A DNA stretch of 59,384 bases, counting the filler, from Circinaria calcarea (lineage: Eukaryota): the NCBI GenBank assembly GCA_051942165.1. It is 6 parts of 6 records of this genome, joined end to end, with 100 filler letters (N's around TTAATTAATTAA, not from the genome) between each part and the next. Parts side by side here need not be neighbours in the genome. Positions count along the whole stretch, not along the records: positions 1 to 9,844 come from JAVECS010000883.1; 5 more parts are not named here. The stretch is one strand, 5' to 3'. The notes below the pieces were generated by a model. That model had not been told where the DNA came from. It ran no database searches and saw only the letters and a list, made by a program, of their open reading frames with translations. Positions 904 through 8,951 of the stretch are shown in pieces (positions within the stretch are counted from its first letter, which is position 1; each line of letters begins with the position of its first letter). The position numbers were made by a program, and so were the translations under genes.

Positions 904-1329
904 CTATATGGTTGGCTCATCTGTGAACCATGCGTAGGCAATGGCCTCGTCGGCGTCCTCCTCGGCCTCTGCTGAGCGTTTGCGAGTCGATGCGGGCTCT
1001 TCGGTGAACCATGCATAGGCAATGGCCTCGTCGGCGTCTTCTTGAGCTGCTAAGGATCGTTTACGGGTCGAGGTCTGCTCTTCGGTGAACCAGGCGTACG
1101 CAATAGCCTCGTCTGCATCCTCTCCGGTCTTCGTTACTCGTTTGGAAAAGGTGTCAACGAGTCGATTATCCCGTTGGGTTAGTGACTCGACTCCCTCTAC
1201 AAACATTTAGGATATTGATTTGAATAGTCCTAAGCGGAGTACCTTACCAATGCCAGTATTCTGAACGGGGAGAGCATAGCTGCAAATGCTCAGAAGTGAG
1301 GCCGACAAAATGAAGAGTGAGGAACGCAT
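904..1329 (-). CDS. Kex2-processed repeat protein / candidate dikaritin-type RiPP precursor, 124 aa, two exons (1329-1248, 1196-904)
   Basis: Exon 1 encodes signal-peptide-like MRSSLFILSASLLSICSYALPVQNTGI. A GTAAGG...TTTGTAG intron (1247-1197) joins it in frame to ORF 904..1206. Three EDADEAIAYAWFT units at 81-nt period, each preceded by a KR/RKR site. Directly adjacent to two DUF3328 genes. Confidence 0.9.
922..1122 (-). repeat. Three coding repeats (39-nt cores at 922-960, 1003-1041, 1084-1122; period 81 nt)
   Basis: Direct comparison of the three copies: identical 13-aa translation, only synonymous differences. Confidence 0.95.
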
Positions 1330-2033
1330 TCTTGAGCTTCAAAATTGATATGAAGTAACAAGCAGCAAGAGCGTCTTCTGTGTCTTAACTACAATAATTA
1401 ATCAGGATTCGGAATCGAGCCAGACAATCAAAGTGATGGCACAAGAAGATGTGGGATTTAATAGAGCATAAAGCTGATCCCTTAAGAGTTCATTTTCCCG
1501 GCTCACACGCCGCTCCATCTCACCGCTGATTGATGGCCGGACCAATTGGGCCGCCTAACAACAAACGGGCATCGATACTTGGCCAGGATTATTTACCTAG
1601 GTGATGCGCGTGCAAGGCGCAGATACGGGGCTTTGAATTGAGGTGGTGCAAATACTACACACCCGCAGCGCTGGCTTCTAATCTGACGTGCTTTTAGGGG
1701 CGCAGCTGCTGTGGATGCTCAGTTGACACCTTGCCATGTACATCCACCTCGGTTACCACCGGTCTGCTGTACCATGCATCCATCCAGGACTTTTGTCTTG
1801 TGAGTGCCAAAGTTCAGCTACGCGTATTCCTTCCTCGACAAGTATTTCGGATATCGCTTTCAGCAATCACGCTACCGCCAAATTAAGCTAGAATATTCGT
1901 TTAGTATACTCTTGCAATTATTCGTTCATACTTGAAGTGCTTAAGCTATTGGTATACACTTTAAGATCTTGATGGTTTGTTTATTATACACCCAGTTATC
2001 TATTCTGCTCTATCATTATATTAAGCTATCAAG

Positions 2034-2807
2034 ATGAAGTTATCATTCTCATTCTTACCAGAAAGCATTCAATATACGCGAATTGATGATAACAGCAGCA
2101 CCGAAAGAAGGAGACCCAGACTAATATCCTGGTTTGGGAAAGCTGCAACTGGCTTCGTAATATGCTCTGTTGTTGCACTGGTATCAGGCTTCATAGGACT
2201 TTATTTTGGAAAGCAACTCCAGCATTCTCCGCCAAACGATTGGCTAGGTATGTGTGCTTTTCACCAGCTCTTCGCCCTCAGCACTGACTCCATTCTGTTT
2301 GCAGCCCCTGCTGGTACCATCAACTCCACATTTCATTATCGCAAGCAATTCGCCGCAGAACCAACAAATAGGACGGGGAAAATATGGGAGATCATGTTCC
2401 CTAGTACGTTCCTTCTTTCTCCCCTCCCTTCTCCGTCCGATCGCCAAATACTGACTTTATACCTAGAGGGCCGGGGATTCATCCGCAAAGATGACATTGC
2501 AAACGGCGAGATCAGAGGTGTCGCTGTTTTCCATCAACTACACTGTCTCGATGGGCTTCGCCGCGGCTATTACGCCGCCCTAAAAAGCCAGTCTCCTTCC
2601 GTGCATGCTGATCCCGCCCACATGCGTCACTGTATTGACTACCTCAGGCAGTCTCTCCTGTGCTGCGCGGACACGAATCTGGAGCATGTTGACCCGAACC
2701 TCAAGGGCACGACAGGATGGGGCTTCCCGCGGAAGTGTAGAGATATTGTGAGGATCAAAGATTGGGCAGAGGAGTGGAGGACGCATAATCAGACGGGAAT
2801 ATTGTAG
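2034..2807 (+). CDS. DUF3328 / UstYa-family oxidase #1 (about 217 aa after removing introns 2248-2304 and 2404-2466)
   Basis: N-terminal transmembrane helix, then VAVFHQLHCL, HMRHCIDYLRQSLLCCADTNLE and GWGFPRKCRD. Two HxxHC motifs are diagnostic of DUF3328. Both introns are GT..AG, multiples of 3 and stop-free. Confidence 0.93.
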   Translation: MKLSFSFLPESIQYTRIDDNSSTERRRPRLISWFGKAATGFVICSVVALVSGFIGLYFGKQLQHSPPNDWLGMCAFHQLFALSTDSILFAAPAGTINSTFHYRKQFAAEPTNRTGKIWEIMFPSTFLLSPLPSPSDRQILTLYLEGRGFIRKDDIANGEIRGVAVFHQLHCLDGLRRGYYAALKSQSPSVHADPAHMRHCIDYLRQSLLCCADTNLEHVDPNLKGTTGWGFPRKCRDIVRIKDWAEEWRTHNQTGIL

Positions 2808-6941: not shown

Positions 6942-7442
6942 AAGCAGGACATTTGAGAACTGCTCTACTAAGTTGAGCGCTATTGCGAAGTCTTTGGTAT
7001 TTTGGGGCCTAAACTCCGTATTCCTTTGATCCAACTATGGGAATATCGGTGCCGATCTATGGGTGTAGAAGATCGTCTCTATTGGATGGTCTTTTTGGAG
7101 AAGGTAGCGAGGCAAGGGAATACTCCAGCAACCGGTAAACCGAGTACGTCATAACTAAAAGTTAATGAAATATAGTAAAATAGCTGAAATGGTCTATGTA
7201 AACAATGCTTCAAGCTTATACACCAACTGCATAACGGCTCTGACATGAAGGGAACTCCACGCCCCGATGGAACGTTTGTTTTATGTACCTTCCAGAGCTC
7301 CTGCGCCATTGGCACAAATTCCTTTATGCATGGTGTGGCACGTCCGCACTACCTATATAGCCCCGTCGATTCCCATGTGTTCATTCAATCTTCCTCAGCA
7401 TTTCTGTTTGCTTAAAGGTTGATTATTTTAGGGATAAGTACA

Positions 7443-8951
7443 ATGACACATGATAGAATGAGTTCCATTCAAGAGCTAGCTCTCATCATCTCTTCAAGCA
7501 CTTCAAAGGTCAATGATTATTACACCTCCAAGGGTCTGCCGTTTCCATCCTTCGCTGTTGATGCTCCGAGTTCATCTTTGATATCGCCCAAGGATGAAGA
7601 AGTCGAAGCTGCGAGAAACGCCATCATAGATGCAACTCTCAAGCTTCGAATCCTAATGCTCGGGCCAAGGGACTACTTGCAGAGCTTTATGGTACGCTTC
7701 TCCCACTCTAGGCCAATGCGGATCTAACCCCGCCAGCACAATGAGCTCATCAGCATGCAAGTGATCAGCCGCTTCAAAATCGCCTCCAGCTTTCCTGTGT
7801 ACGAGGAAGCTTCGTTCGACGAAATTGCCAAAACAACTGGCCTGAGCGAGCATAATGTCCGCAGGTTTTTACGCCATGCTATGACCAAGCACATCTTCCA
7901 TGAGCCTCGAAAGGGTTTCGTTGCCCATACGGCCGCCTCTCAACTGCTGTCTGAGGATGAACAGATGCTCGATTGGGTAAGCGCAAGTACAGATGAGCTA
8001 TGGCAAGCTGCATGTCAAACCGTGAATGCCATGGAGAGATGGCCTGGGTCGCAAGAACCAAATCAGACTGTGAGTCAATCGAGGAATGGAATATCCCTTA
8101 TTATGATTTTGCTCTTCCTTCTCTCGTTCATACAGTAGTCATTTAATTGACTATCGTCATCAATAGGGATTTGCCCTTGCCAATAACAGCGAAAAATCCA
8201 TCTATGAGATCCTTGCCCAGTACCCCCAGCGTGCTAAACGGTTTGGGAACGCCATGACTTCCTACACCCAGGGAGCAGGCTATGACCTCAAGCTCCTCGA
8301 GCGCAACTATCCCTGGGCCGCTCTAGGGGAAGCTACCATTGTCGATGTAAGCGAGGCTGCCTCTCCCGTTGTAGCCCTTGTGATTTATATATTCGAGTCA
8401 CTACTAATTATCCCTCCTAGGTTGGCGGCTCCCACGGTTCGGTTTGCATCCACCTTGCAACCGTATTCCCATCTCTCACTTTCGTCGTCCAAGATTTCCC
8501 TCCCGTCATCGAAGCCGGCTCGTCCCAATTGTCCTCGCAAGACCCCTCTCTTGCCTCCCGAATCACCTTCCAGGCCCACGATTTCCTCACCGAGCAGCCC
8601 GTCAAAGGAGCGGACGTGTACTTCTTCCGCTGGATCTTCCACAACTGGTCCGATGCCTATAGCGTCCGCATCCTCCGCAACCTGATTCCCGCGCTCAAAC
8701 CTGGCGCTCGCATCGTGGTGCATGATAACCTGCTGCCGGAACCCGGGACGATGGCTCTGTGGGCGGAAGAGGGGCTACGATGCATGGACCTCACGATGCT
8801 GGAGCTGCAGAATTCGAGGGAGAGGGAGATGGATGACTGGAAGGCTTTGTTTGAGATGGCGGACGGCCGATTCAAGTTTCTCGGAGGGAACCAGCCCAAC
8901 GGTTCACGTTTGTGGATCTTGGAAGCGGTTTGGGAGGGCGAATTGGCTTAA
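7443..8951 (+). CDS. SAM-dependent O-methyltransferase (Methyltransf_2, fungal secondary-metabolite type), multi-exon; start at 7443 or 7458
   Basis: Winged-helix part (RRFLRHAMT..IF.EP..G.VAHT), IVD|VGGSHG SAM motif across an intron, AHDFLTEQPVKGADVYFFRWIFHNWSD, LIPALKPGARI, DLTML....RER. Confidence 0.92.

What the first reader, a model, noticed from the sequence alone, without database searches (positions are those of the whole stretch)
904..8951. Candidate new fungal RiPP (dikaritin-type) biosynthetic cluster with a Tyr/Trp core
Seen: a secreted repeat precursor transcribed divergently from one DUF3328 gene, a second convergent DUF3328 gene, then a PTH11/SAT4-like membrane protein and an O-methyltransferase, all on one gap-free contig. 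Established: a Kex2-repeat precursor plus UstYa/DUF3328 oxidases defines dikaritin pathways (ustiloxin core YAIG, phomopsin YVIPID, asperipin-2a FYYTGY, victorin GLKLAF), where DUF3328 enzymes form oxidative crosslinks. Inference: the core here lies within AIAYAWFT, matches none of those cores, and has Tyr-x-Trp-Phe aromatics suited to a Tyr-Trp or Tyr-aliphatic crosslink. The product may therefore be an uncharacterised cyclic peptide. I cannot confirm novelty without a database search.
Basis: partly seen in the sequence, partly recalled or inferred. Interest (0 to 1): 0.92.

Follow-up and report, generated by a model that had tools for sequence, protein, structure and literature searches.

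The report
Conserved lichen RiPP peptide gene cluster
A lichen-forming fungus carries an intact five-gene set for making a small modified peptide from a repeated Tyr/Trp-rich motif, and parts of the same set recur in distant fungi, so it is a solid but chemically untested lead for a new natural product.

Summary
Window 904-8951 lies on one 9,844-base contig of a Circinaria calcarea MAG. It carries five intact genes:
- a secreted 124-aa precursor with three copies of EDADEAIAYAWFT(E/D)E separated by KR sites
- two UstYa/DUF3328 genes, each with both HXXHC motifs and one membrane anchor
- a Fung_rhodopsin-domain multi-pass membrane protein
- a Methyltransf_2 methyltransferase

The block D-x-D-x-AIAYAWF(T/S)E is invariant in the only other annotated relatives, from Pleopsidium flavum and Annulohypoxylon moriforme. 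It is also present in two metagenome contigs.

One of those contigs (L002) carries all five genes in the same order and orientation, with unrelated flanks. Consecutive GenBank accessions place the precursor next to the UstYa1 ortholog in A. moriforme. They also place UstYa1 next to UstYa2 in 4 of 4 Xylariales assemblies that could be compared.

Among the core copies, codons differ almost only synonymously.

This is therefore a real, conserved UstYa-type (dikaritin-like) RiPP cluster without a tyrosinase. The product, the exact core limits and any Tyr-Trp cross-link remain inference. I found no description of this core. I could not read the asperigimycin paper (Tyr/Trp-type fungal RiPPs), and MIBiG was not available.

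Verdict: new member of a known kind, moderate interest.

The parts
1248..1329 (-). Precursor exon 1: start codon at 1329 and the signal-peptide-like N-terminus (MRSSLFILSASLLSICSYALPVQNTGI). The exon ends in phase 1, before a GTAAGG donor.
   Evidence: Sequence read. Spliced translation. Identical to NCBI model P0001. Hydrophobic segment at residues 4-22.
904..1196 (-). Precursor exon 2. It holds the pro-region with KR at residue 46, three repeats EDADEAIAYAWFT(E/D)E separated by ..STRKR.., and the stop codon at 906-904.
   Evidence: Tandem repeat of period 81, 2.6 copies.
1084..1107 (-). Core copy 1 (AIAYAWFT)
1003..1026 (-). Core copy 2 (AIAYAWFT)
922..945 (-). Core copy 3 (AIAYAWFT)
1330..2033 (.). 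Intergenic region of 704 bp between the divergent precursor and UstYa1 genes. It is a presumed bidirectional promoter.
   Evidence: Coordinates. No motif shared with L002 was detected.
2034..2807 (+). UstYa1 (NCBI Q9187_004463, 217 aa). Exons are 2034-2247, 2305-2403 and 2467-2807. It has a TM anchor at residues 40-58 and the motifs HQLHC (127) and HMRHC (156).
   Evidence: Pfam PF11807, E 1.9e-22. NCBI model P0004. Introns. Motifs and TM. Invariant columns in the 14-sequence alignment A2.
3146..4114 (-). UstYa2 (my model, 271 aa). Exons are 4114..3715, 3652..3534 and 3442..3146. It has a TM anchor at residues 59-77 and the motifs HELHC (168) and HVEHC (200).
   Evidence: Pfam PF11807 on two exons. 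Splice sites read. Model. Motifs. Forms a paralog clade separate from UstYa1.
5558..6941 (+). Fung_rhodopsin-domain (PTH11/SAT4-like) multi-pass membrane protein, 386 aa, five exons. One intron is GC-AG (6399-6449).
   Evidence: Pfam PF20684, E 5.7e-31. Model. Hydrophobic segments. Ortholog in L002.
7443..8951 (+). Class I COMT-type methyltransferase, 427 aa, four exons, with SAM motif VDVGGSHG.
   Evidence: Pfam PF00891, E 4.2e-21. Model. Nearest solved chains are GedA and LepI, E about 1e-19. Ortholog in L002 at about 64% identity.

Best explanation
Window 904-8951 is a functional, self-contained UstYa-type (dikaritin-like) RiPP biosynthetic cluster of the lichen fungus Circinaria calcarea.

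**Proposed pathway**
1. The 124-aa precursor enters the secretory pathway through its signal peptide.
2. A Kex2-type protease cuts at the KR sites. This releases three peptides that each carry an acidic flank, AIAYAWFT, and a second acidic flank.
3. The two membrane-anchored, lumen-facing UstYa oxidases recognise the conserved acidic/AIA context and oxidatively modify the aromatic core.
4. The methyltransferase adds a methyl group, and unidentified peptidases trim the flanks.

**Most likely chemistry**
The first oxidative step most likely cross-links the Tyr side chain to the residue two positions on, which is Trp in Y-A-W. This parallels the Tyr to Ile(i+2) bridge of ustiloxin (core YAIG), but without a tyrosinase. 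The second UstYa probably performs a further oxidation or a second cross-link.

**Unknown role**
The role of the conserved 7-TM-like Fung_rhodopsin protein is unknown. Export, self-protection or sensing are guesses.

**Shown versus inferred**
- Shown: gene content, intactness, conservation, synteny, and purifying selection on the core.
- Inferred: processing, the enzyme-substrate relation, the type of cross-link, and the site of methylation.
For: **1. Gene content**
- Two PF11807 genes lie well above the gathering score, and each carries two HXXHC motifs and one TM anchor.
- The cluster also holds a PF00891 methyltransferase and a PF20684 membrane protein.
- All spliced models are open.

**2. 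Precursor architecture**
- It has a signal-like N-terminus, three KR sites and three repeats.
- This matches the published UstA scheme, read in passages of the review PMC6514808. There the cores are flanked by conserved ED and KR motifs, and Kex2 cleavage precedes cyclisation by UstQ/Ya/Yb.

**3. Conservation of the core**
- In a collection of about 5.8 billion protein clusters, the precursor search gave 3 hits among 277 candidates. These are the window's own protein, a 71-aa Pleopsidium flavum protein and a 96-aa Annulohypoxylon moriforme protein.
- All three share D-x-D-x-AIAYAWF(T/S)E(E/D).
- The taxa span two subclasses of Lecanoromycetes and the Sordariomycetes.

**4. Purifying selection**
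- Five copies of the 15-codon block were compared: three in the window, one in L001 and one in L002.
- Nine codons vary synonymously and only one varies non-synonymously, E to D.
- L001 and L002 are 99.4% identical, so there are effectively four independent copies.

**5. Synteny**
- L002 has precursor(+), UstYa1(-), UstYa2(+), Fung_rhodopsin(-) and methyltransferase(-), the mirror image of the window.
- Similarity is confined to window ~904-8951 against L002 ~10102-1496.
- The flanks differ. The window has zf-AN1. L002 has RNase T2 on one side and MFS, P450 and a type III PKS on the other.

**6. Adjacency elsewhere, by consecutive GenBank accessions**
- The proxy is validated in the window itself, where the precursor is KAL9118982 and UstYa1 is KAL9118983.
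- In A. moriforme, UstYa1 is KAI1460526 and the precursor is KAI1460527, on one 799,320-bp contig.
- UstYa1 and UstYa2 are consecutive in 4 of 4 assemblies present in both look-ups: Xylaria flabelliformis twice (once also by locus tags FHL15_002781/002782), X. cubensis, and Daldinia sp. FL1419.

**7. Paralogy**
- UstYa1 and UstYa2 form two deep paralog clades, each with 100/100 support, and each contains both the Circinaria and the Xylariales members.

**8. Function of the family**
- Passages of reviews PMC9233826 and PMC6514808 state that UstYa/UstYb homologs perform the Tyr-Ile side-chain cyclisation in ustiloxins and phomopsins.
- The same passages state that a single homolog suffices for asperipin-2a.
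Against: - No expression or metabolite evidence exists for any member.
- Only three annotated precursors and two near-identical metagenome loci are known.
- In the Xylaria, Daldinia and Chaetomium genomes that hold the UstYa1 ortholog, no precursor with this motif is annotated. It may simply have been missed, but that is unverified.
- Linkage in Pleopsidium could not be examined.
- Two of the four lineages (Pleopsidium and L001/L002) have a single core, so repetition is not a constant feature.
- The conserved block is not directly bounded by KR, and the last copy has no downstream KR. Extra peptidases must be assumed, and the true core limits are unknown.
- No tyrosinase, transporter or regulator lies on the contig.
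- The contig is only 9.8 kb. L002 synteny argues that nothing is missing.
- Whether the Fung_rhodopsin and methyltransferase genes accompany the pair outside the two lichen-type loci was not tested.
- COMT-fold proteins are not always methyltransferases. LepI, a depositor-named O-methyltransferase, is among the nearest solved chains. From memory, it acts as a pericyclase.
Confidence: 0.8

Rival explanations
1. The cluster is real but the product class is already characterised. For example, it could belong to the benzofuranoindoline (Tyr/Trp-derived) fungal RiPPs called asperigimycins from Aspergillus flavus, or to another published UstYa RiPP. In that case the core is not new chemistry.
For: - A 2025 Nat Chem Biol paper on benzofuranoindoline-bearing heptacyclic fungal RiPPs from A. 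flavus exists. I saw only its citation and one sentence about it in PMC13608438.
- A benzofuranoindoline needs a Tyr and a Trp (recalled from diazonamide chemistry), and Y-A-W offers both.
- I could not read that paper, and MIBiG is not available here.
Against: - No Aspergillus protein is among the 28 UstYa1 relatives at E <= 1e-5. The nearest Eurotiomycete, Talaromyces stipitatus, has 31% identity. That search uses a word prefilter.
- No precursor from Aspergillus shares the motif.
- Text searches for the motif found nothing relevant.
- The 3 Umemura 2020 KEP supplement files held as text (which may be truncated) have no YAWF.
Confidence: 0.15
2. The small protein is an ordinary Kex2-processed repeat protein that releases unmodified linear peptides, such as pheromone-like or signalling peptides. 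On this view the neighbouring UstYa genes act on something else.
For: - The architecture is generic: signal peptide, KR sites and repeats.
- A language-model look-alike search gave, at sub-threshold score 0.85, a yeast alpha-factor precursor cluster (a lead only).
- The review PMC9233826 notes the similarity between dikaritin processing and alpha-factor processing.
Against: - Adjacency of the precursor and UstYa1 is kept in three independent lineages across two classes.
- No NRPS or other substrate-providing gene lies in the syntenic unit.
- The invariant aromatic Y-x-W-F core flanked by acidic residues mirrors the ED-core arrangement of UstA.
Confidence: 0.05
3. The cluster makes a modified peptide, but the key chemistry is not a Tyr-Trp bridge. 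Alternatives include a Tyr phenol-O to C-beta ether of another residue as in asperipin-2a, hydroxylation or dehydrogenation as in some phomopsin UstYa homologs, or a bridge involving Phe or Ile.
For: - UstYa homologs perform diverse reactions. Passages of PMC12048977 describe ether formation and hydroxylation among others.
- Asperipin-2a ether links run from Tyr side chains to beta-carbons (PMC6514808).
- Ile, Phe and Thr/Ser are also conserved in the block.
Against: - Nothing computed here discriminates between these chemistries.
- The Y-A-W spacing equals the Y-A-I spacing of ustiloxin, which is the only positional argument for Tyr to Trp.
Confidence: 0.4

Closest known systems
Ustiloxin B pathway (ust cluster: UstA precursor, UstYa/UstYb, UstQ tyrosinase, UstM methyltransferase) of Aspergillus flavus / Ustilaginoidea virens
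   Same: - A secreted multi-core precursor with KR (Kex2) sites and acidic residues before the core.
- Two UstYa-family genes and a methyltransferase.
- The core begins Y-A-x, so the Tyr and the i+2 residue have the same spacing: YAIG against YAWF (PMC6514808 passages; window).
   Different: - The syntenic unit has no tyrosinase, FMO, P450, PLP enzyme, transporter or regulator.
- The i+2 residue is Trp rather than Ile.
- There are 1-3 cores instead of 16.
- The conserved block is longer (AIA before Tyr) and is not directly followed by KR.
- A Fung_rhodopsin membrane protein is part of the unit.
- Direct sequence comparison with UstYa, UstYb or UstM was not possible because those sequences are not retrievable here.
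Asperipin-2a pathway (aprA, aprY, aprT, aprR) of Aspergillus flavus
   Same: It is a small tyrosinase-free UstYa cluster with an aromatic-rich core (FYYTGY), in which the UstYa homolog alone makes the Tyr-derived cross-links (PMC6514808 passages).
   Different: - The asperipin-2a cluster has one UstYa rather than two.
- It has a transporter and a reductase instead of a methyltransferase and a Fung_rhodopsin protein.
- Its core has no Trp.
Lichen 'dikaritin-like' RiPP clusters (clans R1 and R2 and scattered UstY homologs) of Pasinato & Singh 2025, PMC12048977
   Same: These are Lecanoromycete clusters with UstY homologs bearing HXXHC, and clan R1 has a methyltransferase (abstract, section 16 and passages).
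   Different: - That survey reports no conserved repeated precursor in its clans.
- Here the precursor is explicit and conserved.
- Circinaria, Pleopsidium and Schaereria do not occur in its main text or its 4 held supplement files.
Asperigimycins (benzofuranoindoline-bearing fungal RiPPs, Aspergillus flavus; Nie et al. 2025)
   Same: They are a fungal RiPP class whose name implies Tyr/Trp-derived cross-linking, which is the chemistry the Y-A-W core would permit. This is recalled. Only the citation and one sentence were seen.
   Different: Unknown. The paper was not held, so its core and genes could not be compared. No Aspergillus relatives appeared.

Membership tests
Dikaritin / UstYa-type fungal RiPP cluster | At least one UstYa/DUF3328 (PF11807) gene with the two HXXHC motifs | tested here: met
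   Two genes match PF11807 (E 1.9e-22; E 3.1e-19 and 4.3e-10 on two exons). Motifs are HQLHC/HMRHC and HELHC/HVEHC. They are invariant in the 14-sequence alignment A2.
Dikaritin / UstYa-type fungal RiPP cluster | Clustered precursor with an N-terminal signal peptide and core peptide(s) delimited by Kex2 (KR) sites, usually repeated | tested here: met
   The 124-aa precursor has a hydrophobic N-terminus, three KR sites and three cores. No dedicated signal-peptide predictor was available. Orthologs have 1-2 cores.
Dikaritin / UstYa-type fungal RiPP cluster | Precursor and UstYa genes are genetically linked across species | tested here: met
   Linkage holds in the window, in L001/L002 and in A. 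moriforme by consecutive accessions. Pleopsidium was not testable.
Dikaritins in the narrow sense of Ding et al. (as quoted in PMC12048977) | Tyrosinase (UstQ/PhomQ-like) in the cluster | tested here: not met
   No tyrosinase domain was found in the ORFs scanned from the contig: 15 ORFs of >=50-90 aa from window 1-9465. None was found in 67 ORFs of >=100 aa of L002. Asperipin-2a also lacks one.
Dikaritins in the narrow sense of Ding et al. (as quoted in PMC12048977) | Methyltransferase in the cluster | tested here: met
   PF00891, E 4.2e-21, conserved in L002. Orthology to UstM or PhomM was not tested.
Dikaritins in the narrow sense of Ding et al. (as quoted in PMC12048977) | Transporter or peptidase in the cluster | tested here: not met
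   There is no MFS, ABC or peptidase in the syntenic unit. The MFS in L002 lies outside the conserved block. The Fung_rhodopsin protein is not a known transporter.
Dikaritin / UstYa-type fungal RiPP cluster | The product is a side-chain cross-linked macrocyclic peptide derived from the core | not testable with these tools
   This needs expression and LC-MS/NMR.
Kex2-processed repeat proteins (KEPs) | Secreted protein with repeated peptides separated by KR/RR sites | tested here: met
   It is not present in the 3 held supplement files of the 2020 KEP catalogue when searched for YAWF.

The most novel reading that the evidence does not exclude
AIAYAWF(T/S) precursors define an uncharacterised RiPP family shared by lichen-forming Lecanoromycetes and Xylariales. 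In this reading, two UstYa oxidases, without a tyrosinase, join Tyr to the Trp two residues on. The result would be a new Tyr-Trp-bridged, possibly diazonamide-like or benzofuranoindoline, methylated macrocycle. It would be the first lichen-fungal RiPP pathway with an identified precursor, and a conserved 7-TM Fung_rhodopsin protein would be a new pathway component.
Probability: 0.3. Interest if true: 0.7.

Novelty: new member of a known kind. Interest (0 to 1): 0.5.

Why it matters
Few fungal RiPPs have been characterised. According to passages of PMC12048977 read here, no lichen UstY-type cluster examined in that survey had a recognisable repeated precursor.

This locus supplies one.

The unit is small enough to rebuild in a heterologous host. 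It would test what UstYa enzymes do with a Trp partner.

Ustiloxins inhibit microtubule assembly (PMC6514808), and phomopsins, as I recall, do too. The product could therefore be bioactive, but that is speculation.

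Tried and rejected
- **Whole genome:** none is held for this window, so no search for a tyrosinase or regulator elsewhere in the genome was possible.
- **Sequencing runs:** for 904-8951, none was listed, so splicing and co-expression could not be checked.
- **Complex prediction:** UstYa1 lumenal part (residues 60-217) with precursor residues 47-124 gave no verdict (score 0.00, controls not run). 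This is neither for nor against binding.
- **AlphaFold2 of UstYa1:** with the 14-sequence alignment the mean pLDDT was 62.9 and pTM 0.46. That is too weak, so no fold search was run.
- **PDB sequence search:** the UstYa1 profile gave 0 hits at E <= 1.
- **NCBIfam:** five cluster proteins or exons gave nothing above cut-off.
- **ESM Atlas:** the precursor gave no hit at 0.9 or above.
- **Longer precursor forms:** none among 1,995 candidates.
- **Promoter motifs:** shared k-mers between window and L002 promoters were 10 7-mers against a shuffled mean of 6.1 (maximum 12), and no 8- or 9-mers. No shared motif was found.
- **Earlier findings of this scan:** nothing by sequence, words or place.
- **Literature:**
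  - The asperigimycin paper is not held.
  - A search on UstYa/DUF3328/UstY was swamped by an author name.
  - A whole-word 'UstYa' search from 2022 returned 32 papers with 31 listed. None had a title or abstract opening about a Trp-containing core.
  - A search on DUF3328/RiPP/tryptophan/crosslink listed 25 of 264 papers, none on a fungal UstYa Tyr-Trp peptide.
- **First splice attempt:** my first attempt on the precursor was off by one base and was corrected.
- **Neighbours beyond 9845:** I first read the genes beyond 9845 as neighbours (note 9). I withdrew this once the linkers showed they lie on other contigs.

Full report
**What is in the window**

The window is not one continuous locus. 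Five spacers of the form N44-TTAATTAATTAA-N44 occur at about 9.9-kb intervals, so it is a concatenation of contigs. The finding lies wholly on the first contig, bases 1-9844. The protein database gives 9,844 bases as the contig length for the two annotated genes. The Pfam hits I obtained for ORFs beyond 9845 therefore say nothing about the neighbourhood.

On the first contig the only other recognisable gene is a zf-AN1 fragment at 1-258. Of the 15 ORFs scanned from this contig, none between 8952 and 9844 matched a family.

**Checking the observation**

*Precursor.*
- On the minus strand an ATG at 1329 opens a hydrophobic N-terminus. A GTAAGG donor follows at 1247, and the acceptor ends at 1197.
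- The spliced product is 124 aa. It is identical to the NCBI MAG protein Q9187_004462 of Circinaria calcarea.
- It has KR at residues 46, 73 and 100. It has three copies of EDADEAIAYAWFT(E/D)E, with AIAYAWFT at 1107..1084, 1026..1003 and 945..922.
- Tandem Repeats Finder reports an 81-nt unit, 2.6 copies, 79% matches.

*UstYa1.*
- It lies 704 bp upstream on the other strand at 2034-2807. It is NCBI Q9187_004463, 217 aa, with introns 2248-2304 and 2404-2466.
- It matches PF11807 at E 1.9e-22.

*UstYa2.*
- It is convergent with UstYa1, at 4114..3146 with three exons, and my model is 271 aa.
- It matches PF11807 on two exons.

Both UstYa proteins have one N-terminal hydrophobic anchor and both HXXHC motifs.

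*Membrane protein.* The Fung_rhodopsin-domain protein occupies 5558-6941, is 386 aa, and matches PF20684 at E 5.7e-31.

*Methyltransferase.* The COMT-type enzyme occupies 7443-8951 and is 427 aa. It matches PF00891 at E 4.2e-21 and carries the motif VDVGGSHG.

No model needs a frameshift or a read-through.

**Is the precursor a conserved gene?**

A word-seeded HMMER search of about 5.8 billion protein clusters returned 3 hits among 277 candidates:
- the window's own protein
- a 71-aa protein of Pleopsidium flavum with one core
- a 96-aa protein of Annulohypoxylon moriforme with two cores

A search for longer forms found none among 1,995 candidates.

In the alignment, the block D-x-D-x-A-I-A-Y-A-W-F-(T/S)-E-(E/D) is invariant, while the rest of the pro-region diverges. 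The three species belong to Ostropomycetidae and Acarosporomycetidae (both Lecanoromycetes) and to Xylariales (Sordariomycetes).

A pattern scan of JGI metagenome contigs matched 525 stretches. Two encode a relative, L001 and L002. They are 99.4% identical to each other. Each has a single-core precursor with the same signal/pro-region layout and the same block.

Five copies of the 15-codon block were compared. Nine codons differ synonymously and one differs non-synonymously, Glu to Asp. Because L001 and L002 are near-identical, this amounts to four independent copies. The peptide, not the DNA, is what is being kept.

**Is it a cluster?**

L002 carries all five genes in the mirror-image order and orientation of the window (Pfam on 67 ORFs):
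- precursor ~9.8-10.1 kb (+)
- UstYa1 8.1-9.1 kb (-)
- UstYa2 7.0-7.9 kb (+)
- Fung_rhodopsin 3.8-5.2 kb (-)
- methyltransferase 1.5-3.2 kb (-)

tblastx and tblastn similarity runs collinearly over window ~904-8951 against L002 ~10102-1496 and stops there. HSP-level amino-acid identities, which are rough because HSPs cross introns, are:

| Gene | Approximate identity |
|---|---|
| UstYa1 | 50% |
| UstYa2 | 46% |
| Membrane protein | 44% |
| Methyltransferase | 64% |

The flanks are unrelated. The window has zf-AN1. L002 has RNase T2 on one side and MFS, P450 and a type III PKS on the other.

For annotated fungal genomes I had no DNA, so I used consecutive GenBank protein accessions as a proxy for adjacent genes. 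The proxy holds in the window itself, where the precursor is KAL9118982 and UstYa1 is KAL9118983.
- In A. moriforme, the UstYa1 ortholog is KAI1460526 and the precursor is KAI1460527, both on a 799,320-bp contig.
- I searched 1.84 billion representatives with the last exon of UstYa2. This gave 971 hits at E <= 1e-3 and 6 at E <= 1e-30.
- I then looked up ten top UstYa2-side and ten UstYa1-side proteins.
- Four assemblies occurred in both lists: Xylaria flabelliformis twice, X. cubensis, and Daldinia sp. FL1419. In all four the two genes have consecutive accessions. In one X. flabelliformis assembly they also have consecutive locus tags, FHL15_002781 and FHL15_002782.
- The other species appeared in only one list, because the lists hold cluster representatives. 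They are uninformative.

A maximum-likelihood tree of 32 UstYa proteins was built from all named close hits plus some more distant ones. Fragments and unnamed short hits were left out. It separates UstYa1 and UstYa2 into two clades, each with 100/100 support, and each holds the Circinaria protein together with Xylariales proteins. The gene pair is therefore old, or it has moved as a pair.

**How it most likely works**

The published scheme for ustiloxin comes from passages of the review PMC6514808:
- a secreted UstA has 16 YAIG cores flanked by conserved ED and KR motifs
- Kex2 cuts it into 13-14-mers
- UstQ, UstYa and UstYb cyclise these peptides
- unknown proteases trim the flanks
- UstM methylates the product

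[quoted passage not shown] It also states that the four-gene asperipin-2a cluster needs only one UstYa homolog to make Tyr-side-chain to beta-carbon ethers in FYYTGY. Review PMC9233826 says the cyclisation links the N-terminal Tyr side chain to an internal Ile.

The present precursor fits this template: signal peptide, KR sites, and acidic residues (EDADE) before the conserved block. The Tyr-Ala-Trp spacing equals the Tyr-Ala-Ile spacing of ustiloxin.

My best reading is as follows:
1. Kex2-type cleavage occurs in the secretory pathway.
2. The two lumen-facing UstYa oxidases carry out oxidative modification.
3. The most likely first step is a Tyr to Trp(i+2) side-chain bridge made without a tyrosinase.
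4. Methylation and exopeptidase trimming follow.

Only the parts list, its conservation and the selection on the core are shown. All the chemistry is inference. The conserved AIA before Tyr, and the T/S after Phe, may belong either to the product or to the recognition sequence.

The Fung_rhodopsin protein is kept in both lichen-type loci, but I found no described role for it in RiPP pathways.

**Comparison with what is known, and novelty**

The cluster meets the broad definition of a UstYa-type, dikaritin-like RiPP cluster. It has UstYa genes with HXXHC motifs, a linked Kex2-type precursor, and a methyltransferase. It does not meet the narrower five-part definition quoted in PMC12048977, because it has no tyrosinase and no transporter or peptidase.

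The 2025 survey of 111 lichen-fungal genomes reports UstY homologs but no conserved repeated precursor in its two clans (abstract, section 16 and passages). It does not mention Circinaria, Pleopsidium or Schaereria in the text or in its 4 held supplement files.

Searches for the core in print:
- Full-text searches for AYAWF, YAWFT, IAYAW and YAWFS listed 18 papers, none relevant, and AYAWF had 0 occurrences.
- The 3 held supplement files of the 2020 KEP catalogue contain no YAWF. Those files may be truncated.

One important gap remains. The paper on asperigimycins, benzofuranoindoline-bearing RiPPs of A. flavus, is not held. I saw only its citation. I do not know its core peptide, and MIBiG could not be queried. 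No Aspergillus sequence appeared among the relatives of the precursor or of UstYa1. This argues against orthology but does not exclude related chemistry.

**Verdict**

This is a real, intact, evolutionarily conserved five-gene UstYa-type RiPP cluster with a well-defined precursor and an invariant Tyr/Trp/Phe core. It is best filed as a new member of a known kind, with confidence about 0.8 that it makes a modified peptide.

A cross-class invariant core with Trp at the position of ustiloxin's Ile is an attractive and easily testable mining lead, and it would be the first lichen-fungal RiPP locus with an explicit precursor. Even so, candidate UstYa-plus-precursor clusters are numerous. One survey found 94 precursor candidates (PMC6514808). 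Nothing here shows new chemistry. Interest is 0.5.

Noticed in passing
window 9845-9944, 19777-19876, 29695-29794, 39605-39704, 49504-49603: Each N stretch is N44 + TTAATTAATTAA + N44, a six-frame stop linker. The window is therefore six contigs of about 9.8 kb joined artificially. Gene neighbourhood must not be read across these points.
   Followed up: yes
window 6399-6449; L002 about 3905-3970 (minus strand): The Fung_rhodopsin gene uses a GC-AG intron (donor GCAAGC) in the window, where L002 has GTAAGT. L002 in turn has a GCAAGT donor at the next intron, where the window has GTGAGT. Each ortholog thus has one non-canonical donor at a different intron.
   Followed up: partly
L002 12201-13615, 14833-15609, 17971-19094: Next to the RiPP unit in the metagenome contig lie an MFS transporter, a cytochrome P450 and a type III polyketide synthase (chalcone/stilbene synthase domains). 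This may be a second biosynthetic cluster. None of it is conserved with the window.
   Followed up: no
proteins P0190, P0037, P0032: - A close UstYa1 relative occurs in Chaetomium globosum (CHGG_06034).
- Close UstYa2 relatives occur in Madurella mycetomatis and Sclerotinia nivalis.
- The gene pair may therefore be much more widespread than the three annotated precursors suggest.
   Followed up: no
window 14407-19255 (separate contig): A large minus-strand gene carries GAF, HisKA, HATPase_c and response-regulator domains, so it is a hybrid histidine kinase. Elsewhere in the window are ordinary housekeeping genes: ZPR1, cyclophilin, Ten1, Snf7, forkhead/FHA, DSBA-like, an M20 peptidase and an ABC transporter.
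   Followed up: no
precursors P0001, P0002, P0003 and L002 9826-10102: Core copy number differs between lineages: 3 in Circinaria, 2 in Annulohypoxylon, and 1 in Pleopsidium and L001/L002. The signal peptide start (MRS...) and a Q-N-(S/T)-G-I motif at the exon-1 end are shared by the three Lecanoromycete-type precursors.
   Followed up: partly
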